DNA of 64,000 nucleotides from Patescibacteria group bacterium (GTDB lineage: Bacteria; Patescibacteriota; UBA1384; 2-12-FULL-50-11), in the NCBI GenBank assembly GCA_016861245.1, contig BOKZ01000001.1, positions 280,962 to 344,961 on the forward strand, written 5' to 3'. Within the stretch, counting starts at the first letter, position 1. Each line of letters starts with the position of its first letter. Under the pieces are notes generated by a model. It was not told the DNA's origin. It ran no database searches and was given only the letters and a program-made list of their open reading frames with translations. Positions 41,518 to 58,098 of the stretch are shown here, one piece after another. Made by a program: the position numbers and the translations under genes.

Positions 41518-41572
41518 AAATTTAAATCATGGACCGCCGAGGTCTTTACCATAAGGCAACTGCTGTTCCGTG

Positions 41573-41645
41573 TGGGGGTGCATGGATTCGAACCATGGAC
41601 CACCAAGGTATAAGCTTGGCGCTCTAACCGCTGAGCTACACCCCC
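41573..41645 (-). tRNA. tRNA with anticodon UAU (Ile, AUA-reading).
   Basis: Manual fold: acceptor GGGGGTG/CACCCCC, D-arm GCTC-AGCGGTTA-GAGC, anticodon loop CTTATAC, T-loop TTCGAAT, discriminator A; no encoded CCA. Confidence 0.7.
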
Positions 41646-44189: not shown

Positions 44190-44582
44190 ATGGTAGTAGA
44201 GAAGAGTAAAAAATTTCTGACCTACGCAGCTGTTGTCGCGCTATTCCTTTTTGCGCTTTACTCAAATATCCGATTGATCGTGCGTAACTATAACTTGCAA
44301 AAGCGAGTTGAAATTGTCCGAGCGGAAGTGAATCAAATGCAAACACGTAACGAAAAATTACGACTAATCCTCTCCTACTATCAAACACCTGCCTATCAAG
44401 AAATCGAGGCGCGTCGGCGACTGCAGGTAAAAAAACCCGAAGAAACAGTACTGACGGTGAAGGGATTAAATCTGAGCGCTGAAGAGCTTAACCTTTTAGA
44501 GGACGCGGTTTACCAAGAGCACGCCACCACAGAGGTCGAGGAGAAAACAAATTTCCAGAAATGGTGGGAGTATTTGTTTTAG
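44190..44582 (+). CDS. FtsB/DivIC-like septum formation initiator (TM plus coiled coil).
   Basis: A single N-terminal TM followed by a heptad coiled coil; size fits. Confidence 0.45.
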   Translation: MVVEKSKKFLTYAAVVALFLFALYSNIRLIVRNYNLQKRVEIVRAEVNQMQTRNEKLRLILSYYQTPAYQEIEARRRLQVKKPEETVLTVKGLNLSAEELNLLEDAVYQEHATTEVEEKTNFQKWWEYLF

Positions 44583-44656
44583 TGGCAAGGGTGGGGAACG
44601 ATCCCACGACCTCGGGCTTATGAGTCCCGCGCTCTAACCAACTGAGCTACCTTGCC
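44583..44656 (-). tRNA. tRNA-Met/Ile2 (anticodon CAU), elongator type.
   Basis: Acceptor GGCAAGG/CCTTGCC with G1-C72, D-arm GCTC-AGTTGGTTA-GAGC, anticodon loop CTCATAA. The T-loop reads ATCGTTC, which is non-canonical (A54). Confidence 0.6.
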
Positions 44657-47103: not shown

Positions 47104-47369
47104 TTTATAGGGCTATAGTTAGGCTTATTATTTTCGGCACTCGGTTGCCGATATTCGTCATATCTGGTAAATTTTATAGTAGTAACTTAGACAATTAGTT
47201 GGACTTAACCCGTGGGTAATACCTACGGTATGGCCATAAAAATCTCTCACAAGTAGTAAGCTCGTCGTTCAGAGCACTTGTGAGAGTCACGTCTCGAAAG
47301 GGGCGTGGGTGCTTCGGCTATCGCAGGCGGCGAGCTTTTTGCTACCCGCCAGCACCAACAAGGAGGTAA

Positions 47370-47936
47370 ATGGAAGTGGCGGAAAAGAAAATTAAGGCTG
47401 ACCAACACAGCCAGTATTGGACCTTTACGATCTTAGCGTTATTGATTCCCGTTGTCGGAATCGTTATGGGGATTATCTACTTGTCCAAACCGGACAAGCT
47501 CGATAAAAAAGTCGGCGAACACAGCATAGCGGTTAGTATCTTTGGACTGATTGCCTACGGGATATTAATCGGCGTATTGAATGCTAATGGAACCCCTATA
47601 GTGGGCGTCCCGGCCGTTACGATACCCTCAGTAACAACCCCTATTACAACTCCGGCAGTATCAGCAGCCAGTAAAATAACTTTGTCGAACAACTCCGTTA
47701 AAGAGAGTTACGGTCTTTGGCAGATAGTTGGCGAAGCAAAGAATACTGACAGTGCTGCCCATACTTTTATCATTTCTGCCACTTTCTACGGAACTGATGG
47801 CAAGATAGTTGGGACAGCTACTGGTAATGTTAATGACTTGGCGGCTGGGGACACTAAAACCTACACTTTATTGTCTTCTGACAACCTTACTGGCTACAAA
47901 GACTATAAAGTGCAAATCTCGACTATGATTCAGTAG
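47370..47936 (+). CDS. Membrane-anchored beta-sandwich (DUF4352-like) hypothetical protein.
   Basis: N-terminal TM; Thr/Pro linker; C-terminal FxxTxxG beta-domain. Confidence 0.4.
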   Translation: MEVAEKKIKADQHSQYWTFTILALLIPVVGIVMGIIYLSKPDKLDKKVGEHSIAVSIFGLIAYGILIGVLNANGTPIVGVPAVTIPSVTTPITTPAVSAASKITLSNNSVKESYGLWQIVGEAKNTDSAAHTFIISATFYGTDGKIVGTATGNVNDLAAGDTKTYTLLSSDNLTGYKDYKVQISTMIQ

Positions 47937-48440: not shown

Positions 48441-50141
48441 TTGTTGGAGGAAAAGAAGATGGATACTAACTGGACTCTTGAAACTTTACGAAACTACTTT
48501 GTAGAGTCATTTGCGAGTAAGAATGAGGTCTCAAAAGAAGACTATAAATATGTAATTTATGCTCGCAAGTCAACCGACGACAAAGACAAGCAGTCCTGCT
48601 CCTTATCCGATCAGGTCAAGGAATGTAAGAAGTATGCGGCTAGTGTGGGACTAGTGGTTGTAGGTAAGCCTATAGAGGAAAAGAAATCCGCAAAAAAATC
48701 GGGACAAAGACCAAAGTTTGATGAAATATTAAACATGATCTCTACTGGTAAGATTCACGGCATTATTTCCTGGCACCCAGATCGACTTAGCAGAAATATG
48801 AAAGAAGCCGGAATAATTATTGAAATGCTGGATGAGGGGAAAATAAAAGATCTTCGTTTTGTAACTCAACAGTTTGATAACTCCGCAAGTGGAAAAATGA
48901 TGCTTGCCATCTCCTTCGCAATTAGTAAGCAATATTCAGATAACATGAGTGTAAATATTACTCGTGGGTCTAAGAACCGACTCTATGAAGGTCATGGGAT
49001 GTACCCAGTCCATGGCTACTATAAGGATGGAGATAACTTTTTAAGGCCCGATGGAGCAAATCACGATCTGTTAAGAGAAGCGTTCCAAATGAGATTAGGC
49101 GGTGAAACCCACGCAGCTATTTGCGAGTTCTTGAATACTTCCGGATATCAAAAAGCCAGAGGGATGGGTGTGGTCAAGCACATAACATTCAAATGGACAC
49201 CGGGTAAACTTTCAGAGCAGTTCTCTAATCCCATCTTTGCGGGGCTGCAACTACATGGCAAGGATGTAGTTAATCTTGTTGACCTTTACAACTTTGAACC
49301 CCTAATTACACCGGAGCAGTATGTAATGATTAGTTCGCTAGGAAAGAATCAAGGCTTTCTTAAGAAACACCGGAGCAAGAAAAAAAAGATAGCCCAATTA
49401 CTAAATGGGAAAATTCTTTGCGGATATTGTAAACGGCCGATGCATGCCAGCATGACCACAAAAAAGCCTAAAAATGGCCAAACAGAAAAGTCTCTTTATT
49501 TGTTTTACCGCTGCCCTTACGGCGATTGTCCTTTCTTTGCTGAATGGGAAAAGTTTAAGGCTAAGAAAAGACACCACCTGCATGTCAAGGCCAGAGTGAT
49601 AGTTAACTTTGCCCAAGAACAGCTGACACATTTGAAAGTAAACTCCGAAGAAACCTTCAACAGCCAAATTGCTGGATTGAAAGCCGAAGCCGCAAGCAAT
49701 ATCCAAAAACTCCAAGTCAAGAAGACAAACTTAGAGCGTCAACGTGTCAGCAAGAAGGATCATATTCTTTCGTTGCAAGAAGCGGTAAAGAATATTGATA
49801 CTAAGGTTGTCTCAGAATTCCAATCAGATTTAGATAATGAGATAAAGTCACTTACTCAAATTAAATTCGCAATCGCTGAAGTTGAGGAAGCAATTGAGAT
49901 AAGTCAGACGGCAGTACCTACATACAAGGATTTCCTCGAACTTATAGCTTCCCTACCAGTTAAATTGCAGTATGCAAAAATGCTATTAGCTAAAGATAGA
50001 ATACTAAGTTCTATATTCTCGAACTTTTATGTAACAGATAAGGGCGTGCAAGGGTTTACGCTCGCTGAACCATATGCAAGCCTACTTGTGCCTCAAAATG
50101 TTCGTTCTCGTAGCGGGGGCACGATTCGAACGTGCGCCTAG
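48441..50141 (+). CDS. Large serine recombinase (integrase).
   Basis: Resolvase catalytic domain YARKSTDDKDKQSCSLSDQ with DRLSRN. Recombinase domain, CGYCKRP/RCPYGDCP zinc ribbon and a coiled coil. Ends inside the tRNA-Met. Confidence 0.85.
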   Translation: MLEEKKMDTNWTLETLRNYFVESFASKNEVSKEDYKYVIYARKSTDDKDKQSCSLSDQVKECKKYAASVGLVVVGKPIEEKKSAKKSGQRPKFDEILNMISTGKIHGIISWHPDRLSRNMKEAGIIIEMLDEGKIKDLRFVTQQFDNSASGKMMLAISFAISKQYSDNMSVNITRGSKNRLYEGHGMYPVHGYYKDGDNFLRPDGANHDLLREAFQMRLGGETHAAICEFLNTSGYQKARGMGVVKHITFKWTPGKLSEQFSNPIFAGLQLHGKDVVNLVDLYNFEPLITPEQYVMISSLGKNQGFLKKHRSKKKKIAQLLNGKILCGYCKRPMHASMTTKKPKNGQTEKSLYLFYRCPYGDCPFFAEWEKFKAKKRHHLHVKARVIVNFAQEQLTHLKVNSEETFNSQIAGLKAEAASNIQKLQVKKTNLERQRVSKKDHILSLQEAVKNIDTKVVSEFQSDLDNEIKSLTQIKFAIAEVEEAIEISQTAVPTYKDFLELIASLPVKLQYAKMLLAKDRILSSIFSNFYVTDKGVQGFTLAEPYASLLVPQNVRSRSGGTIRTCA

Positions 50142-50181
50142 TGGTTATGAGCCACTCGAGGTACCATTCCTCCACCCCGCT
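50111..50181 (-). tRNA. tRNA-Met (anticodon CAU), the integration target.
   Basis: Similar to bacterial tRNA-fMet (AGCGGGGTGGAG...CTCATAA...TTCGAAT...CCCCGCTA), but with A1-U72 and only two GC pairs at the base of the anticodon stem, so initiator identity is uncertain. Confidence 0.7.
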
Positions 50182-52170: not shown

Positions 52171-52704
52171 ATGAAAAATACGGTTTTAGAGAAATTATTC
52201 TGGGTTTCTGGTTGGACATACGATTTCACTAAGATCGCGACGATTTTTCTGATGATCGGGTTATTGAGCCATTATTTTTTCTTTTCGGTACTGATTGTCC
52301 GAGGTAAGAGTATGGAGCCGAACTACGTCGACGGCGATGTAGTTGGTGTTAACAAAATTGCTTACATCGTTTCAACACCGAAGCGCGGCGACGTTATCGC
52401 GATGTTTTTTCCCGGCGAGACTCAAAAACGTTTTATCAAACGGGTGATCGGGCTGCCCGGCGAGACGATTCGAATTGCTGATGGGCTGGTTTACGTAAAC
52501 GGCACGCTCTTAGTTGAAGGCTATCTCAGTCCAGAGCTACTCACGATCCCGAATCTCGAGCGAAAATTAGTCGAGGGAGAATACTTTGTTCTTGGAGATA
52601 ATAGAGTTGCAAGCTCAGACTCGCGTGCCTGGGGGGCGGTCCCAGAGTCGTTTATAATCGGTAAAGCGTTGGTAAATATCGCAAAGCTACCGAGTCGTCC
52701 TTAA
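52171..52704 (+). CDS. lepB: Signal peptidase I.
   Basis: SMEP(N) catalytic Ser box and the GDNR...SxDSR box. Confidence 0.8.
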   Translation: MKNTVLEKLFWVSGWTYDFTKIATIFLMIGLLSHYFFFSVLIVRGKSMEPNYVDGDVVGVNKIAYIVSTPKRGDVIAMFFPGETQKRFIKRVIGLPGETIRIADGLVYVNGTLLVEGYLSPELLTIPNLERKLVEGEYFVLGDNRVASSDSRAWGAVPESFIIGKALVNIAKLPSRP

Positions 52705-54278
52705 GAAACCAACGGTCCTCTGAGGGTCGTGATCGTTTTTGAGATCGAGTCGGTAAGCTCGGTAATGTCTTCAACAAACTGAGTAGTTGAGGACTCTTTG
52801 TACGTAATAAACCAGTCGGGCTTAATAATGGTGGTGCTCGATCGGTCAAATCGCTCGGCCCATTCCTTAGTTTTATTCAGAGCAATTGCGTAAGGGAGAT
52901 ACAACTCGAAGGTGTGGTTACGAGTACTCTCGAGCGGTAACGGTTCCTTCAGCCCTAAAAAGTTACCGAACGATATCCAGTCTCTGCGGGTTGCGATACC
53001 CGCTTCGCTGTATCGAACTAGCTTTGGCGTCAATCGAATAATCAGAAACGAGACTAGCATCGTGCCACCGAGCGGTATGCTTAAATACGGTGACGCACCG
53101 ACTATCGCCACCCAAAGCAGCCCGACGGCGCTGGTAAAGTAAAGCGCTAAACCGAAAAGTTTATACTTAACTCGGGTCAGATGTGGGTTCTCTAAGAAAA
53201 AGTTTTGTTCGGTAATGATTTGGTACACTTGTCCGAACGCGTCTCGAACTTTCGGGCTAAATAGCGAACTATCGGTGATTTCTTGCAGTCCTTCAGTTGC
53301 GAGCTTGCCATGATCTGGGAAAAGCTCTTCAAGGATATTGCGTTCCCAACTTGTTAGATGCTCATCGAACGGCTTGCGCTGGCTTAGGTAATACTGCCCG
53401 GTTCGCTCAACTATAACGATGTAGCCGCGCCGACAAAGTTCTACGAGTAACGCCACGATCACCCGGGGGTGTATCTTCTTTTGTACGAGCACACCAACCA
53501 ACATCGCTGAAAGCTGGCTCGGGGGACGGTCGAGGATCGAAGTAACTGGTACTCGGTCGAGGCGTTGACGTCTGTATAGCAGTAGTAACATCGATAGGCC
53601 AATAATTGGTAGCAGTATTCCAAGCGTCAGCCACGGTAGAACCTCTAGATTTGTTAGATATAGTCGTATCTCTTGAACCTTAGTTAGTGAAAGAACTCGT
53701 TTCGGCCAACTAGCGCTGATTGTAAACAACGATCCCGGAGCGGCGTATTCAGCACTATACACAACCGTATTATTGCTAACTGTCGTTTTAGGATTTGAGA
53801 CCCCGGAAATTGCAAATGCGTTTCCAGTTAGTCCTTCGGTCATATCTTTAGTCGGCAACGAAAAACTGACAGAGACGTTATAGATTGGATCAGGAATCTC
53901 CTGAAAAATTTTTATAAAAATTTGATCGCGATTATTGTTTCTAACTAGCGTTGTGGTCGTTGTATACGTAATTTTCCATTCTCGAGCGAGCTGCTTTGCG
54001 CGGACTACGTGGTGGTTACCAATCTTACCAACCGAGTAGCGAGAGTCGTCGATGTCGCTACCGTCGGCGCTAACAACAAGATTCCTGATATTCGAAAAAA
54101 CCTCCCATTCGAGCTGTATAGGAGTGTTGTACGTTAATTTTTGTGCAATCTGAACCGATCCGTTCTGATTTAAAACTGTTTCGATGTTGAGCTGTTGCAT
54201 CGGCGCGGCGCCACGTGCTTGCCCAGCTAGGCCCAACAGCAGTATCGCAAAGAGCGATATTTGGAAAATTCGGATCAT
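52701..54278 (-). CDS. DUF2207 family membrane protein.
   Basis: Signal peptide, an extracellular beta-rich domain, a TM, a cytoplasmic loop, then two TM helices. Confidence 0.55.
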   Translation of the reverse strand: MIRIFQISLFAILLLGLAGQARGAAPMQQLNIETVLNQNGSVQIAQKLTYNTPIQLEWEVFSNIRNLVVSADGSDIDDSRYSVGKIGNHHVVRAKQLAREWKITYTTTTTLVRNNNRDQIFIKIFQEIPDPIYNVSVSFSLPTKDMTEGLTGNAFAISGVSNPKTTVSNNTVVYSAEYAAPGSLFTISASWPKRVLSLTKVQEIRLYLTNLEVLPWLTLGILLPIIGLSMLLLLYRRQRLDRVPVTSILDRPPSQLSAMLVGVLVQKKIHPRVIVALLVELCRRGYIVIVERTGQYYLSQRKPFDEHLTSWERNILEELFPDHGKLATEGLQEITDSSLFSPKVRDAFGQVYQIITEQNFFLENPHLTRVKYKLFGLALYFTSAVGLLWVAIVGASPYLSIPLGGTMLVSFLIIRLTPKLVRYSEAGIATRRDWISFGNFLGLKEPLPLESTRNHTFELYLPYAIALNKTKEWAERFDRSSTTIIKPDWFITYKESSTTQFVEDITELTDSISKTITTLRGPLVS

Positions 54279-54323
54279 GACCTTATCGTAGCCTAGTTTC
54301 CTCGATTAGAGTACGCTAAACAC

Positions 54324-54572
54324 ATGAAACGATTTGCGGCCGCCTATCTATTTGCAATAGTTGTGGTGACGCTGCTGGCTAATCTTGTGTTTATTCTTTT
54401 GTACGGGCGGCAATTCTTTTACGACGCAGCGATACTTTGTACTGAGAATTGCAGTGGGTCAGTAAACGAGCCGAGTATTCTTCTGCCGCTTCTTGGGATA
54501 AACGCCATCGTTCTCATACTTTTTATATTCGGTTACTTTGTCGCCAGATTACTAATGAAGACGAATAAGTAG
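54324..54572 (+). CDS. Small membrane protein.
   Basis: Two TM helices. Confidence 0.35.
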   Translation: MKRFAAAYLFAIVVVTLLANLVFILLYGRQFFYDAAILCTENCSGSVNEPSILLPLLGINAIVLILFIFGYFVARLLMKTNK

Positions 54573-54620: not shown

Positions 54621-55172
54621 ATGAAGTATTTCTTCGGCACAATCGTGATCGCTCTGATCGCGTTTGGTTACTACTCGTTTTATTACCAGCCGCTCGCCGC
54701 GTCGTCCCCAACGGCGACTCCGGTTTTAACGCTCTCAGAGATACCTAACGACATCTGCCCGGAGAAAATATGGCTGCTAGTTGCGGCTGTTAACGACCCG
54801 AAGCCCTTAGTTGATCGGTCGGTCCCAGTTAGAGAATGCCGAACAGTACTTCTTAAGAATTATCTTCCAGCGTCGTCGGGTGAGTACGCAGTTTTCATGA
54901 AGTTACCGACGTCGCTCGCTAGCTCAGTAGTCGTGAGCACTCCCCTCACTCGATCTATCACCGTACCTATCCGTCTCGGTGATGTAACTAAGGACAACGT
55001 AATCGACGCAGCTGACGAGAAGTTGGTTACTGATGCGCTGTACTCAATCGGCGGCGTAGCCGACATCACAGGGGACGGTAAAGTTTCGGTTGATGATGTT
55101 GTGACTGTGCGCATAAATAAAGGGGTTGGCGCCGATCGACCGGACAGTAAGCCCTGGGGGAAGATCGAGTAA
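54621..55172 (+). CDS. Secreted protein with a C-terminal dockerin-like repeat.
   Basis: Signal/TM; the DVTKDNVIDAADEKLV and DITGDGKVSVDDVV Ca-binding-type repeats are dockerin-like. Confidence 0.45.
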   Translation: MKYFFGTIVIALIAFGYYSFYYQPLAASSPTATPVLTLSEIPNDICPEKIWLLVAAVNDPKPLVDRSVPVRECRTVLLKNYLPASSGEYAVFMKLPTSLASSVVVSTPLTRSITVPIRLGDVTKDNVIDAADEKLVTDALYSIGGVADITGDGKVSVDDVVTVRINKGVGADRPDSKPWGKIE

Positions 55173-56488
55173 TGAAACGAGCGCTGTCGAGTCGAGCGGT
55201 GTTTATTATTTTAAGTTTTATTACTGCAGTACTGCTCTTTGGATCGATGGTGTTACAAAACGTTTATTTTAAAGCCGACCAAGTTGATTCGTCACTCTTT
55301 ATCTCGCCGACGACGTTCTCGCGCAAACCTAACTCCAACGTCACTCTACAAGTTAAAGCCAATATTCAGGGCGCGGCAGTTATCGCTGGGGCACAGTTTT
55401 ACTTGGAGTACGATCAGTCGTTATTGGAGTTTTCTGAAACAACAACAACACCCCCATTTACTAGTTTGCAAAGCGTGGCTGACGAAGGGGTGGTGGCTTG
55501 GACGCTTCTTCCGTCTACGGAATTCGGCACGACGGTTCAGTTGAGCGGCGAGGTAACGTTTGGTTCGGTAGCGTTCAAAACAATAGCCGAGGGCCAAGCG
55601 ACAGTTCGTTTCCGTCAGAGCGACAGCAGTATTACGGCGATTGATTCGAGTCGTTCGCCGGCGCTTTATAACGCAATTGTTTCAATCCAGGACAGTAGCG
55701 GAATTATCTCTGAGCGAAACGGGGAGGCGGCGAAGCCAACCGAAACGTTAACGAAGTCTGCCGAAGTTCTCCCGACTTTCTCGGCGCAAAAGGTGCTGCG
55801 TAACGAGCCGGTTGTTTCCGATGTCGCTGCGAAGTTGCTTGTTTCGCTAAAGTACGTTGGTGGGATAAGCGTTCGCTTTGGCACGACTAGCGACTTACCA
55901 CTGACGATTGAAGCAAGCGAGCTATCGCAGCATCATCTAATCGACTTCTCAGCCCTCGAACCAGAGACGCGATATTATTACCAGCTCATAGTCTACTCCG
56001 AAGACAAAAAAACCTCTCTAAAAACACAAACGAAGAGTTTTGTCACATCTAGCGCTGGCGGTCGGATTGCTGATCAGAAGCTGACGAGCGTAGCAGTGTT
56101 GCCGGAAGTCGCTACTAAGACCGCTAAAGTTGTAATCGCCGCCCGTGACGATCAAGGGAAGGTAAGTAGCGAGCAGTTAACTGTTGTGCCAGTTTCGGGA
56201 AGCGCACAAGTTATAGAGCAGCGAGCACTTAACGGAATAACGGTCGCCACCGTTTCTTCTACTATCACAACCAATCAAAGCGTTGACTTATCTGTTCGTG
56301 CTGGCGAGCGGGAGGTTGCACAGGCGAAACTTACGTTCGATCCTTCGATCGCCGACCACACCGAGCCGATGTATAAGTTCCCAGGTCCGATTCAGATCAC
56401 GCCGAATAACGCGGCTCTACTGTTTTTGGTGGCAGCGGGGATGATTTTATTCGGCATGCTGTTTATCCGTCTGGCAAGAAGTAAATAA
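55172..56488 (+). CDS. Cell-surface protein with an N-terminal cohesin-like beta-sandwich and a C-terminal TM anchor.
   Basis: The QFYLEYDQSLLEF segment resembles the cohesin core. C-terminal TM LFLVAAGMILFGMLFI. Confidence 0.4.
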   Translation: MKRALSSRAVFIILSFITAVLLFGSMVLQNVYFKADQVDSSLFISPTTFSRKPNSNVTLQVKANIQGAAVIAGAQFYLEYDQSLLEFSETTTTPPFTSLQSVADEGVVAWTLLPSTEFGTTVQLSGEVTFGSVAFKTIAEGQATVRFRQSDSSITAIDSSRSPALYNAIVSIQDSSGIISERNGEAAKPTETLTKSAEVLPTFSAQKVLRNEPVVSDVAAKLLVSLKYVGGISVRFGTTSDLPLTIEASELSQHHLIDFSALEPETRYYYQLIVYSEDKKTSLKTQTKSFVTSSAGGRIADQKLTSVAVLPEVATKTAKVVIAARDDQGKVSSEQLTVVPVSGSAQVIEQRALNGITVATVSSTITTNQSVDLSVRAGEREVAQAKLTFDPSIADHTEPMYKFPGPIQITPNNAALLFLVAAGMILFGMLFIRLARSK

Positions 56489-58098
56489 TGTCGCCGATTC
56501 GCCGCATCACCAACTTATTCTATCAGTCGCACAACTTGAAGCAGGCGGTTGGTATCTTGTTTGTGACGGTACTAATTAGCAACGTCTTGGGGCTTATCCG
56601 TAATATTATTATCGCCAATCGGGTTGGCGTAACCTACGGTTCGATCGGTCCGCTCGACAATTACTACGCCGCCTTTGTTTTACCCGATTTTCTTTACAGC
56701 ATTTTAATCGTCGGTGCGCTCAGCTCGGCGATCCTCCCGCTACTGGTAAAAATCGATACCGAGGAAAACGATCAGAAATTTTGGCAGACGTTTAATACTC
56801 TACTCTCAACTGGTTTCACGGCAATTATTTTTGGGCTAGCCGCACTGTATTTTATGCTCCCTTGGTTGATGCCGCGATTATTCCCAGGTTTCTCAGATGT
56901 CGATATTCGGCAGACAACCGAATTAGCGCAGGCGATGCTACTAAGCCCGCTATTCTTTACTGTTTCCCAGCTCTCAACCTCGGCACTGCAGGCAAAGAAA
57001 ATGTTTTTTGCGCCGGCGTTAGCGCCGATCGTTTACAACGTCTCAATTATTACGGGCGCCCTGCTTATCCCCAGATTCGGCTTACCGGTCCTCGTTTTCG
57101 GAGTAATCTTAGGGGCAGCGGCGCATTTTCTCGTTCAGCTTCCAAGTTTACTGCGACTGGGTTGGCGTTTTAGTTTTGAGATTAGTTTTGGCAGCGGTTT
57201 AGTTCGTCAGGTGTTTAAACTAATGATCCCGAGAACAATCGCTCTCACTAGTACCCAATTGCTACTCATCGCTTTCTACCGCATCGCCTCAGATTTTTCG
57301 GCGGGTTCAATCGCTATTTATCGCCTGACCGACGATCTGCAAACTGCACCGGTGTTGCTACTCGCCAATACGTTAGCGATGGCGATTTTACCGGACTTTA
57401 CGCGCAAATTTGCTAAGGATCAAAAGGAAGAGTACCAACAGCTTGTCGGCAAGGCTCTTCGTCTACTCCTGTTTATTTTTCTACCGGCGACGATATATCT
57501 TTTGCTGTTTAGAACACAAATTATCGGTTTATATATCTCGATCGGTCACAGTATCGACCCAGCTGAAACAATAATGGCGATCAAGACCTTTTCGTATTTC
57601 GTGATTTCAATATTCTTTCAAGGCGCCGTACTACTTTTGGCGCGAGCGTACTTTGCGCGCTCAGACACAATGCGCCCCACAGTCTACAGTATCTGCTCGA
57701 TTGCGGTGGCGCTTCTTTTTGCGTGGTGGAGCGCTCGCGCAACTTCACTCGGTGTGGCTGGGCTCGCACTCGCCTTTTCGATCGGCTCAATTATTAACGC
57801 ATTACTACTGTGGTCGACTATTGGGGTACCGCTTCGAAGTTTTTTGTACGATATAGATGGTAAAAAGAATGTATTGTTAGTGTTAGCCGGTGGGCTAATG
57901 ACGACAGCAGTATTTGCTGTTGCTTACGTCGCTTCGCCGACGGTTAGCGCGCTTTTCACTAATAGCCCGTCCGCGCAGAACTTAATTGAACTATTATTTG
58001 GATTAGCGGTAGGACTACTGTTTTACTTTGTCTGGAGTAAAGTGTTTAATCTAGAGCAATGGCAGATGATCCGCAACAGACGTTCTACTCAGACGTAG
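56488..58098 (+). CDS. murJ: Lipid II flippase MurJ (MviN family).
   Basis: About 14 TM helices with MATE-like topology; a conserved Arg-rich central cavity. Confidence 0.8.
   Translation: MSPIRRITNLFYQSHNLKQAVGILFVTVLISNVLGLIRNIIIANRVGVTYGSIGPLDNYYAAFVLPDFLYSILIVGALSSAILPLLVKIDTEENDQKFWQTFNTLLSTGFTAIIFGLAALYFMLPWLMPRLFPGFSDVDIRQTTELAQAMLLSPLFFTVSQLSTSALQAKKMFFAPALAPIVYNVSIITGALLIPRFGLPVLVFGVILGAAAHFLVQLPSLLRLGWRFSFEISFGSGLVRQVFKLMIPRTIALTSTQLLLIAFYRIASDFSAGSIAIYRLTDDLQTAPVLLLANTLAMAILPDFTRKFAKDQKEEYQQLVGKALRLLLFIFLPATIYLLLFRTQIIGLYISIGHSIDPAETIMAIKTFSYFVISIFFQGAVLLLARAYFARSDTMRPTVYSICSIAVALLFAWWSARATSLGVAGLALAFSIGSIINALLLWSTIGVPLRSFLYDIDGKKNVLLVLAGGLMTTAVFAVAYVASPTVSALFTNSPSAQNLIELLFGLAVGLLFYFVWSKVFNLEQWQMIRNRRSTQT

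What the first reader, a model, noticed from the sequence alone, without database searches (positions are those of the whole stretch)
54621..56488. Adjacent dockerin-like and cohesin-like surface proteins
The 183-aa secreted protein ends in a duplicated Ca-binding-type segment typical of dockerins. The next gene, whose start overlaps its stop, encodes a TM-anchored protein whose N-terminal beta-domain contains the cohesin-like ...FYLEYDQSLLEF core. A cognate cohesin/dockerin pair in a putatively minimal-genome bacterium would indicate a protein-scaffolding system on the cell surface. That could be relevant to host attachment.
Basis: inference. Interest (0 to 1): 0.5.

Follow-up and report, generated by a model that had tools for sequence, protein, structure and literature searches.

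The report
Membrane-anchored cohesin–dockerin gene pair
Two overlapping genes in a small-genome uncultured bacterium encode a membrane-tethered dockerin protein and a membrane-anchored cohesin protein; they probably clip together 1:1 on the cell surface, carry no enzymes, and sit just upstream of the cell-wall flippase gene murJ.

Summary
ORFs 54621-55172 (183 aa) and 55172-56488 (438 aa) exist and share a TAATG stop/start junction.

Protein 1 is: N-terminal hydrophobic anchor, small two-cysteine beta domain, dockerin. On its own it is below the Pfam cutoff (14.2 vs 22.9 bits). But 10/10 orthologues hit Dockerin_1 (best 4.7e-8), the family profile retrieves solved dockerins (5.4e-6), and the Ca-ligand positions are almost perfectly conserved in 15 orthologues.

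The order Doc, Coh, MurJ recurs in at least 14 diverged lineages. One locus clearly lacks the Doc gene.

It is not a cellulosome: one cohesin, one dockerin, no enzyme, no CBM. The best reading is a Ca-dependent 1:1 surface heterodimer. Binding and function (adhesion versus envelope role) are inferred, not shown. All sources call both proteins hypothetical. Closest precedents are the adjacent single Coh/Doc pair ClcC/ClcD and TM-anchored single-cohesin proteins of Firmicutes.

Verdict: new variant of a known kind, moderate interest.

The parts
54324..54572 (+). Small two-TM protein (82 aa; conserved YGRQF motif, Cys-containing loop). A frequent but not constant first gene of the block.
   Evidence: ORF; no Pfam family. 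Orthologues detected by family HMM in L001-L005, L009-L011, L014, L019, L020. Not detected in L008, L012, L017, L021.
54621..55172 (+). Dockerin protein (183 aa): N-terminal hydrophobic anchor, small beta domain with two invariant Cys, C-terminal dockerin, short conserved tail.
54627..54689 (+). N-terminal hydrophobic segment of protein 1 (about residues 3-23); probable signal anchor.
   Evidence: Hydrophobicity and flanking-residue analysis across orthologues; no conserved small-residue (-3, -1) cleavage site. Inference, not a dedicated predictor.
54723..54965 (+). Beta-rich domain of protein 1 (about residues 35-115), with invariant P42, C46, P47, C73 (likely disulfide). Fold unassigned.
   Evidence: Alignment A7. 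No Pfam hit in any orthologue. AF2 model too poor and Foldseek gave no match at E <= 0.001.
54975..55136 (+). Dockerin module (residues 119-172): two Ca-binding loops (D121-D132, D148-D159), each followed by a helix-forming stretch.
   Evidence: Pfam Dockerin_1 14.2 bits in this protein. 10/10 orthologues hit Dockerin_1, best 4.7e-8. Family profile against PDB retrieves dockerins, best 5.4e-6. Ligand positions conserved in 15 orthologues.
55137..55169 (+). C-terminal tail after the dockerin (G.G..RPD...W), with invariant D175 and mostly conserved W179.
   Evidence: Alignment A7. Role unknown; absent or truncated in L018 and L021.
55170..55174 (+). TAATG stop/start overlap between the dockerin and cohesin genes, preceded by the G-rich run GGGGGAAG at 55156-55163.
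55172..56488 (+). Cohesin protein (438 aa): N-terminal TM, cohesin, linker, FN3-like domain, Big_1-like Ig domain, C-terminal TM with basic tail.
55196..55258 (+). N-terminal TM helix of protein 2 (about residues 9-29), preceded by K2, R3, R8 and followed by the conserved juxtamembrane motif GS..LQ(R/N)(I/V).F(K/R)A.
   Evidence: No canonical signal-peptidase site in the conserved motif.
55292..55705 (+). Cohesin domain (about residues 41-178), including FYLEYDQSLLEF.
55805..56056 (+). FN3-like domain (about residues 212-295; FG.T...L.GL.P.TRYYYQ).
56084..56347 (+). Bacterial Ig-like (Big_1 / intimin-invasin type) domain (about residues 305-392).
   Evidence: 7/45 members hit Big_1 (best 6.8e-8) and 2 hit Invasin_D3. 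Family profile matches the repeats of 4e9l_A, deposited as 'attaching and effacing protein, pathogenesis factor', at 8.6e-9.
56405..56467 (+). C-terminal TM helix (about residues 412-432), followed by the basic tail RLARSK.
   Evidence: No LPXTG-type motif is visible before it in the alignment.
56486..56490 (+). Second TAATG stop/start overlap, between the cohesin gene and murJ.
56488..58098 (+). MurJ lipid II flippase gene, the constant downstream neighbour of the cohesin gene.
   Evidence: Pfam MurJ 197 bits; TIGR01695 233.3 bits, just under its 235.55 cutoff. Immediately downstream in every locus examined.

Best explanation
The two genes encode a minimal, non-enzymatic cohesin-dockerin pair on the outer face of the cytoplasmic membrane of a small-genome, probably Patescibacteria/CPR, bacterium.

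Protein 2 is held in the membrane by a C-terminal TM helix, and possibly also by an uncleaved N-terminal one. It displays a cohesin, an FN3-like domain and an intimin-type Ig domain.

Protein 1 is held by an N-terminal hydrophobic segment. It carries a small disulfide-bonded beta domain followed by a dockerin with two calcium sites.

The genes are co-transcribed and translationally coupled, so the proteins are made together. The most likely mechanism is that the Ca2+-loaded dockerin of protein 1 binds the single cohesin of protein 2 to form a 1:1 heterodimer on the cell surface. The beta domain of protein 1 and the Ig/FN3 stalk of protein 2 would be the functional, adhesive or structural, surfaces.

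Shown here: the domain identities, the architecture, the gene coupling, and the co-conservation of the pair. Inferred: extracytoplasmic location and topology, mutual binding, and the adhesive/structural role.
For: Cohesin identity:
- Pfam above cutoff in the window protein; 24/45 family members, best 7.6e-9.
- PDB profile hits are cohesins only for this region.

Dockerin identity:
- 10/10 orthologues hit Dockerin_1, best 4.7e-8.
- The family profile retrieves about 28 dockerin or dockerin-bearing chains, best 5.4e-6.
- Ca-ligand positions 1, 3, 5, 9 and 12 are conserved in both repeats in 15 orthologues.

Pairing:
- One dockerin and one cohesin per locus.
- A Doc gene lies immediately upstream of the Coh gene, with overlap or a gap of a few bases, in at least 14 lineages whose Coh proteins are only about 21-35% identical to the window's.
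- TAATG junction.
- The two evolve at similar, fast rates: mean identity 36% and 33%, against 63% for MurJ and 72% for LepA. That fits exposed surface proteins.

Location: hydrophobic termini with basic flanks and an invariant Cys pair.

Precedent: an adjacent single Coh and single Doc gene pair forms a heterodimer in Cellulosilyticum lentocellum.
Against: - No binding test or complex model could be run.
- The window protein's own dockerin score is below Pfam's cutoff, and its AF2 model is unusable (pLDDT 45).
- One divergent relative (L015) keeps the Coh protein next to murJ with no dockerin anywhere in 9.3 kb. A second (L016) has no Doc gene directly upstream, on a short contig. So the cohesin protein can persist without an adjacent partner.
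- Only 64 kb of the genome was visible, so other dockerin or cohesin proteins that might be the true partners cannot be excluded.
- The whole neighbourhood (FtsH, signal peptidase, DUF2207, ..., MurJ, LepA) is syntenic across these lineages. Adjacency alone is therefore weaker evidence than it would be in a shuffled background.
- The mirror-tree correlation was uninformative.
Confidence: 0.6

Rival explanations
1. Both modules are genuine but are not each other's partner. The cohesin binds dockerin-bearing proteins encoded elsewhere in the genome, or on another cell such as a host or a sibling. The dockerin of protein 1 likewise binds a different cohesin, or works simply as a Ca-binding stabilising module.
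For: L015 keeps the cohesin protein without any dockerin in 9.3 kb. Only 64 kb of the genome was visible. Cross-species cohesin-dockerin recognition, and a close ClcC cohesin homologue in a genome with no identifiable dockerin gene, are reported in the literature.
Against: Adjacency with start/stop overlap in at least 14 diverged lineages. Exactly one of each module per locus. Similar evolutionary rates. The nearest experimentally tested case of adjacent single Coh/Doc genes did form a heterodimer.
Confidence: 0.2
2. The block is primarily a cell-envelope biogenesis accessory of MurJ. The Coh-FN3-Ig membrane protein, with or without the dockerin protein, organises or regulates lipid II export or wall assembly, rather than mediating adhesion.
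For: murJ follows the cohesin gene in every locus examined, usually with overlap or a gap of a few bases. This includes the dockerin-less L015, where the gap is about 100 bp. No terminator-like site with a convincing T-tract lies between the genes.
Against: The entire region is syntenic in this lineage, so linkage may be inherited rather than functional. No known MurJ partner has this architecture (my own knowledge; not searched exhaustively). The proteins evolve about twice as fast as MurJ, which is unusual for a core biosynthetic partner. This rival is not mutually exclusive with Coh-Doc binding.
Confidence: 0.15
3. The resemblance is superficial: generic beta-sandwich and EF-hand-like sequences that are not true cohesin or dockerin homologues.
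For: The window dockerin scores only 14.2 bits. The cohesin Pfam match covers only profile positions 6-55 of 139. The AF2 models are low confidence. Calmodulin-type EF-hands appear among the weakest PDB hits.
Against: Family-level statistics are strong and specific. Dockerin_1 is hit by 10/10 orthologues and is the only family hit by more than one of them. Cohesin is hit by 24/45 members with no competing CBM family. Top PDB sequence and fold hits are dominated by dockerins and cohesins respectively.
Confidence: 0.03

Closest known systems
ClcC/ClcD minimal cohesin-dockerin pair of Cellulosilyticum lentocellum (Clole_2599 / Clole_2598; PMC13487519)
   Same: A single cohesin gene and a single dockerin gene sit next to each other, are apparently co-transcribed, and give a 1:1 heterodimer rather than a multi-enzyme scaffold.
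   Different: ClcD is a GH5 cellulase and ClcC carries CBM3 and X2 modules with no membrane anchor. Here neither protein has a catalytic or carbohydrate-binding module, both have hydrophobic membrane segments, the gene order is Doc then Coh with a 1-nt overlap, and the organism is a small-genome uncultured bacterium. Binding is shown for ClcC/ClcD and only inferred here.
Single-cohesin proteins with a C-terminal TM helix in Firmicutes (H. luporum, C. cibarium, Lachnoclostridium sp. MSJ-17; PMC11557425)
   Same: One cohesin plus a C-terminal transmembrane helix as a proposed non-SLH, non-sortase cell anchor.
   Different: Those sit in genomes with several dockerin proteins or with unidentified partners, and belong to cellulosome-type repertoires. 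Here the partner candidate is encoded by the overlapping upstream gene, and the cohesin is followed by FN3 and Big_1 domains.
Non-cellulosomal cohesin-dockerin modules: C. perfringens glycosidases (NagJ Coh-FN3, 2w1n; GH33 cohesin, 2vo8), R. bromii amylosome Sca5 cohesins (7urp, 7uvg), Archaeoglobus fulgidus cohesin (2xdh). Survey: Peer et al. 2009, cited but not readable here.
   Same: These are the best structural matches to the cohesin domain. 2w1n even shares the Coh-FN3 order. All are Coh/Doc modules used outside cellulose degradation.
Type II X-module-dockerin dyad of CipA (2b59_B)
   Same: A beta domain directly abuts the dockerin with no linker. 2b59_B was the best PDB hit of the shallow family profile, with the alignment running into the X module, and it stays among the top hits of the deeper profile.
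   Different: With the deeper profile, only the dockerin and about 13 preceding residues align. The fold of the upstream domain could not be determined. Treat this as a lead only.
Classical cellulosome scaffoldin systems
   Same: The same two interaction modules.
   Different: No tandem cohesins, no enzyme-borne dockerins, no CBM, no SLH or sortase anchoring.

Membership tests
Dockerin (Pfam PF00404 Dockerin_1) | Tandem duplication of a ~22-residue segment, each a 12-residue EF-hand-like Ca loop followed by a helix | tested here: met
   D121-D132 and D148-D159, each followed by a hydrophobic/amphipathic stretch. First-Asp to first-Asp spacing is 27 residues in the window protein (up to 35 in orthologues). 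That is somewhat shorter than the 34-35 seen in the classical type I dockerins aligned.
Dockerin (Pfam PF00404 Dockerin_1) | Oxygen-donor residues at loop positions 1, 3, 5, 9, 12 in both repeats | tested here: met
   Across 15 orthologues: pos 1 D 15/15 in both loops; pos 3 T/N/D 15/15; pos 5 D 14/15 (N once) in loop 1 and 15/15 in loop 2; pos 9 D/N 15/15 in loop 1 and S/T/D 14/15 in loop 2; pos 12 D 15/15. The window protein has Thr at position 3 in both loops.
Dockerin (Pfam PF00404 Dockerin_1) | Window protein itself reaches the Pfam gathering score | tested here: not met
   14.2 bits against a cutoff of 22.9, E 0.053, though it covers profile positions 1-51 of 57.
Dockerin (Pfam PF00404 Dockerin_1) | Significant homology of the orthologous family to known dockerins | tested here: met
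   10/10 orthologues hit Dockerin_1, best 4.7e-8. Precomputed PF00404 on the L018 and L021 orthologues. Family profile against PDB: 6kg9_A 5.4e-6, 2ccl_B 8.2e-6, 2b59_B 2.9e-5 and about 25 more dockerin chains.
Dockerin (Pfam PF00404 Dockerin_1) | Dockerin three-dimensional fold | tested here: inconclusive
   AF2 from a 5-sequence alignment gave pLDDT < 50 over residues 100-171. Foldseek found nothing at E <= 0.001.
Dockerin (Pfam PF00404 Dockerin_1) | Ca2+-dependent binding to a cohesin | not testable with these tools
   Needs biochemistry or a complex prediction.
Cohesin (Pfam PF00963) | Match to the Pfam model at or above the gathering score | tested here: met
   25.6 bits against 24.1, E 1.6e-5, but only residues 47-96 against profile positions 6-55 of 139. 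24 of 45 family members match, best 7.6e-9.
Cohesin (Pfam PF00963) | Nine-stranded beta-sandwich (jelly-roll) cohesin fold | tested here: met
Cohesin (Pfam PF00963) | Binds a dockerin | not testable with these tools
   Only co-conservation evidence is available.
Cellulosome / scaffoldin system | Scaffoldin with multiple cohesins | tested here: not met
   One cohesin per protein and per locus; one in the 64-kb window.
Cellulosome / scaffoldin system | Dockerins carried by catalytic subunits, and a CBM on the scaffoldin | tested here: not met
   No catalytic or CBM family was hit in either protein or in any orthologue.
Cellulosome / scaffoldin system | Cell-wall anchoring through SLH modules or a sortase signal | tested here: not met
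   No SLH hit. The C-terminus is a TM helix with a basic tail and no LPXTG-like motif in the alignment.
Minimal adjacent Coh/Doc pair (ClcC/ClcD type) | A single cohesin gene and a single dockerin gene, adjacent and co-oriented | tested here: met
   conserved in at least 14 lineages.
Minimal adjacent Coh/Doc pair (ClcC/ClcD type) | These are the only cohesin and dockerin in the genome | tested here: inconclusive
   True for the 64-kb window. The rest of the genome could not be read; related contigs reach 685 kb.
Minimal adjacent Coh/Doc pair (ClcC/ClcD type) | The two proteins form a heterodimer | not testable with these tools
   No multimer prediction or experiment was available.

The most novel reading that the evidence does not exclude
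A lineage-specific, enzyme-free cohesin-dockerin membrane complex, sometimes with a small two-TM subunit, has been co-opted in ultra-small CPR-type bacteria as part of the envelope machinery built around MurJ. One example would be a surface spike or tether whose assembly is coupled to wall synthesis and which mediates attachment to a host cell. That would be a structural or adhesive use of cohesin-dockerin chemistry unrelated to polysaccharide degradation.
Probability: 0.15. Interest if true: 0.7.

Novelty: new variant of a known kind. Interest (0 to 1): 0.42.

Why it matters
Cohesin-dockerin modules outside cellulosomes are widespread, but few have a known job. This family is small and well defined, with about 45 clusters at 50% identity, and every source calls its members hypothetical.

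The two modules are stripped of all enzymes, both appear tethered to the membrane, and they are locked into one translationally coupled block with the lipid II flippase gene. For organisms thought to live attached to other cells with very few genes to spare, a conserved and fast-evolving surface pair is a concrete candidate for an attachment or envelope structure.

It also offers a very small natural Coh-Doc pair (dockerin about 55 residues, cohesin about 140) for binding studies. If the two do not bind each other, the family would be a useful counter-example to inferring partnership from adjacency.

Tried and rejected
Only the cohesin, FN3 and Ig parts of the protein 2 model were usable. The protein 1 model gave no fold match.

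2. Hypothesis: the near-invariant YNA..S.Q motif at the end of the cohesin domain (N167, Q173) tracks the presence of the dockerin partner. It was suggested by its absence in the Doc-less L015 and L016. I predicted that motif-less P0052, P0073 and P0054 would lack an upstream dockerin gene. All three have one. Rejected.

3. Mirror-tree style correlation of Doc and Coh divergence against MurJ and LepA: all correlations were high (0.78-0.94) and driven by the one close pair. Uninformative.

4. X-module-like identity of the domain before the dockerin: suggested by the shallow profile but not sustained by the deeper one.

5. Word-indexed homology searches found only 4-9 relatives. The exhaustive representative search was needed to see the family.

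6. The locus scan with the 45-sequence alignment failed for lack of a conserved stretch. A 10-sequence subset worked.

7. Literature searches for this pair in Patescibacteria/CPR found nothing relevant. The MAG name DTUPAT3 is in no held paper. Peer et al. 2009 is not held.

8. The organism's taxonomy could not be pinned down beyond the record title 'MAG: bacterium isolate DTUPAT3'.

9. NCBIfam has no model for either protein.
Full report
**1. What is in the sequence**

- The stop of the first and the start of the second share one base (TAATG), preceded by a G-rich run.
- The same TAATG arrangement joins protein 2 to the next gene, murJ, at 56488-58098 (Pfam MurJ 197 bits).
- An 82-aa two-TM ORF (54324-54572) precedes protein 1.
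- A DUF2207 membrane protein is transcribed divergently, and lepA follows murJ.
- No terminator-like site with a convincing T-tract separates the four co-oriented genes.

**2. Protein 2 is a cohesin-FN3-Ig membrane protein**

Sequence evidence:
- Pfam Cohesin matches residues 47-96 at 25.6 bits (cutoff 24.1, E 1.6e-5). This covers only the first third of the model.

Family evidence:
- A word-indexed search found only four relatives. An exhaustive HMM search of 1.84 billion representatives found about 45 full-length family members of 424-455 aa (38 at E <= 1e-30).
- Scanned one by one, 24 of 45 hit Cohesin (best 7.6e-9), 34 of 45 hit the FN3-like Pur_ac_phosph_N, and 7 hit Big_1 (best 6.8e-8). 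No CBM or catalytic family appears.
- The family profile hits cohesin chains in the PDB for the N-terminal domain. For the third domain it hits the Ig repeats of 4e9l_A, deposited as 'attaching and effacing protein, pathogenesis factor' (8.6e-9).

Fold evidence:
- The AF2 model is poor overall (pLDDT 55) but reaches about 60-80 in the N-terminal beta domain, which has nine strands.
- Foldseek's best hit is 2w1n, the cohesin-FN3 double module of C. perfringens NagJ (1.5e-6).

Membrane segments: hydrophobic 19-20-residue segments sit at both ends. K/R residues precede the first and a basic tail follows the last. A strongly conserved juxtamembrane motif, GS..LQRIVF(K/R)A, offers no canonical signal-peptidase site.

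**3. Protein 1 carries a real dockerin**

- Alone, it scores only 14.2 bits against Dockerin_1 (cutoff 22.9), although the match spans almost the entire model.
- I recovered orthologues from the genes immediately upstream of protein 2 relatives.
- All 10 orthologues first tested hit Dockerin_1 (best 4.7e-8), and it is the only family hit by more than one of them.
- Their profile pulls about 28 dockerin or dockerin-bearing chains out of the PDB (6kg9_A 5.4e-6, 2ccl_B 8.2e-6, CipA X-Doc 2b59_B 2.9e-5).
- In a 15-sequence alignment the Ca-ligand positions 1, 3, 5, 9 and 12 of both loops are almost perfectly conserved.
- Upstream of the dockerin lies a beta-rich region of about 80 residues with invariant P42, C46, P47 and C73. 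This suggests a disulfide and therefore an extracytoplasmic location. It has no Pfam match and no assignable fold.
- The N-terminal hydrophobic segment lacks a conserved cleavage site. The protein is more likely tethered than secreted.

**4. The pair is conserved as a unit**

- Family HMMs find exactly one dockerin and one cohesin in the window and in each related locus.
- The order Doc, Coh, MurJ, usually with overlapping or nearly abutting genes, recurs in close relatives (L001-L005). It also recurs in L008/L013, L009, L010, L011, L012, L014, L017, L018, L019, L020 and L021. The Coh proteins in those loci are only about 21-35% identical to the window's.
- One further contig shows the same gene sizes but has no DNA held.
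- In L021 the precomputed annotations already say Dockerin_1 and Cohesin for the two genes.
- Mean pairwise identity across seven loci: 38% (small TM protein), 36% (Doc), 33% (Coh), 63% (MurJ), 72% (LepA). The three envelope proteins evolve about twice as fast as their neighbours, as exposed surface proteins often do.

Exceptions and caveats:
- L015, the most divergent member, has the Coh-like protein between DUF2207 and murJ with no dockerin anywhere in 9.3 kb.
- L016 has no upstream Doc gene, but it is a 2-kb contig.
- The small two-TM gene is often missing.
- The whole neighbourhood is syntenic, which weakens inference from adjacency.

**5. How it most likely works**

The pair is not a cellulosome: one cohesin, one dockerin, no enzyme, no CBM, no SLH or sortase signal.

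The best-supported reading is that the proteins are co-translated and inserted into the membrane with their domains outside. The Ca-loaded dockerin then binds the single cohesin, giving a 1:1 heterodimer.

What the complex does is not shown. An adhesive or structural surface role is suggested by the Ig/FN3 stalk, the intimin-type domain and the fast evolution. An envelope role linked to MurJ is suggested by the invariant coupling to murJ, which persists even where the dockerin gene is absent.

My confidence is about 0.9 for the domain identities and about 0.6 for mutual binding.

**6. Comparison with what is known**

- The nearest precedent is ClcC/ClcD of Cellulosilyticum lentocellum. These are a single cohesin and a single dockerin in adjacent genes, shown to form a heterodimer, but they carry GH5 and CBM3 modules.
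- Single-cohesin proteins with a C-terminal TM helix are reported in several Firmicutes.
- Non-cellulosomal cohesins and dockerins are known to be widespread (Peer et al. 2009, cited; not readable here).
- I found nothing on this family or on such a pair in Patescibacteria/CPR. All database copies are called 'hypothetical protein'.

**7. Organism**

The closest species representative is 'MAG: bacterium isolate DTUPAT3' (98% identity). Contigs carrying the same proteins reach 685 kb.

**8. Verdict**

'Scaffolding system' and 'host attachment' go beyond the evidence. It is a new, enzyme-free, membrane-tethered variant of the known cohesin-dockerin kind, of moderate interest.

Noticed in passing
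window 36270-36540 (-) and 36407-36847 (-): A full-length group I intron match (RF00028, 69.9 bits against a cutoff of 50). Its 5' part is overlapped by a 146-aa ORF with an HNH-endonuclease-like Cys/His pattern. No tRNA, rRNA or obvious interrupted gene was found around it, so the host gene is unknown.
   Followed up: partly
window 47202-47322 (+): A full-length LOOT RNA match (RF03000, 65 bits against a cutoff of 46.4) just upstream of ORF 47370-47936. The held literature has almost nothing on it.
   Followed up: partly
window 41572-41645 (-): A tRNA-Ile gene with a TAT anticodon, alongside two CAT-anticodon tRNAs at 44582-44656 and 50110-50181. AUA may therefore be decoded by a dedicated UAU tRNA rather than a lysidine-modified CAU tRNA.
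   Followed up: no
window 31881-34547 (-): An 888-aa ORF with an N-terminal helicase-like part (DEVH). It is followed by about seven tandem ~50-residue repeats of the form 'W(L/I)T...(I/V)A..L......W...L.......(H/F)(Y/F)PP(E/D)...L', read directly from the translation. Not searched against any library.
   Followed up: no
window 34705-36165 (+): A 486-aa ORF whose first ~270 residues look like a sigma-70-family factor (for example 'TLEEIGKRYSITRERVRQV'), with a long unrelated C-terminal extension. This is read from the translation and was not tested.
   Followed up: no
window 54324-54572 (+) and loci L008, L012, L017, L021: The small two-TM gene (YGRQF motif) that opens the block is present in many lineages but undetectable in several that keep the Doc-Coh-MurJ order. 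It is an optional member of the block.
   Followed up: yes
L015 4001-5275 (+): The most divergent family member sits between DUF2207 and murJ with no dockerin gene in 9.3 kb, and with an extra 150-aa gene on the minus strand (1805-2257) that has no Pfam family on record. This is a natural 'cohesin without adjacent partner' variant.
   Followed up: partly
window 55172-56488, residues 26-36 and 166-173 of protein 2: Two strikingly conserved short motifs with no known role: the juxtamembrane GS..LQRIVF(K/R)A right after the N-terminal TM helix, and YNA..S.Q at the end of the cohesin domain (N in 42 and Q in 43 of 45 members). The second does not track the presence of the dockerin gene.
   Followed up: partly
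window 52701-54323: The DUF2207 membrane protein gene (52701-54278, minus strand) is transcribed divergently from the block, with only 45 bp between the two start codons. This arrangement is conserved in related loci.
   Followed up: no
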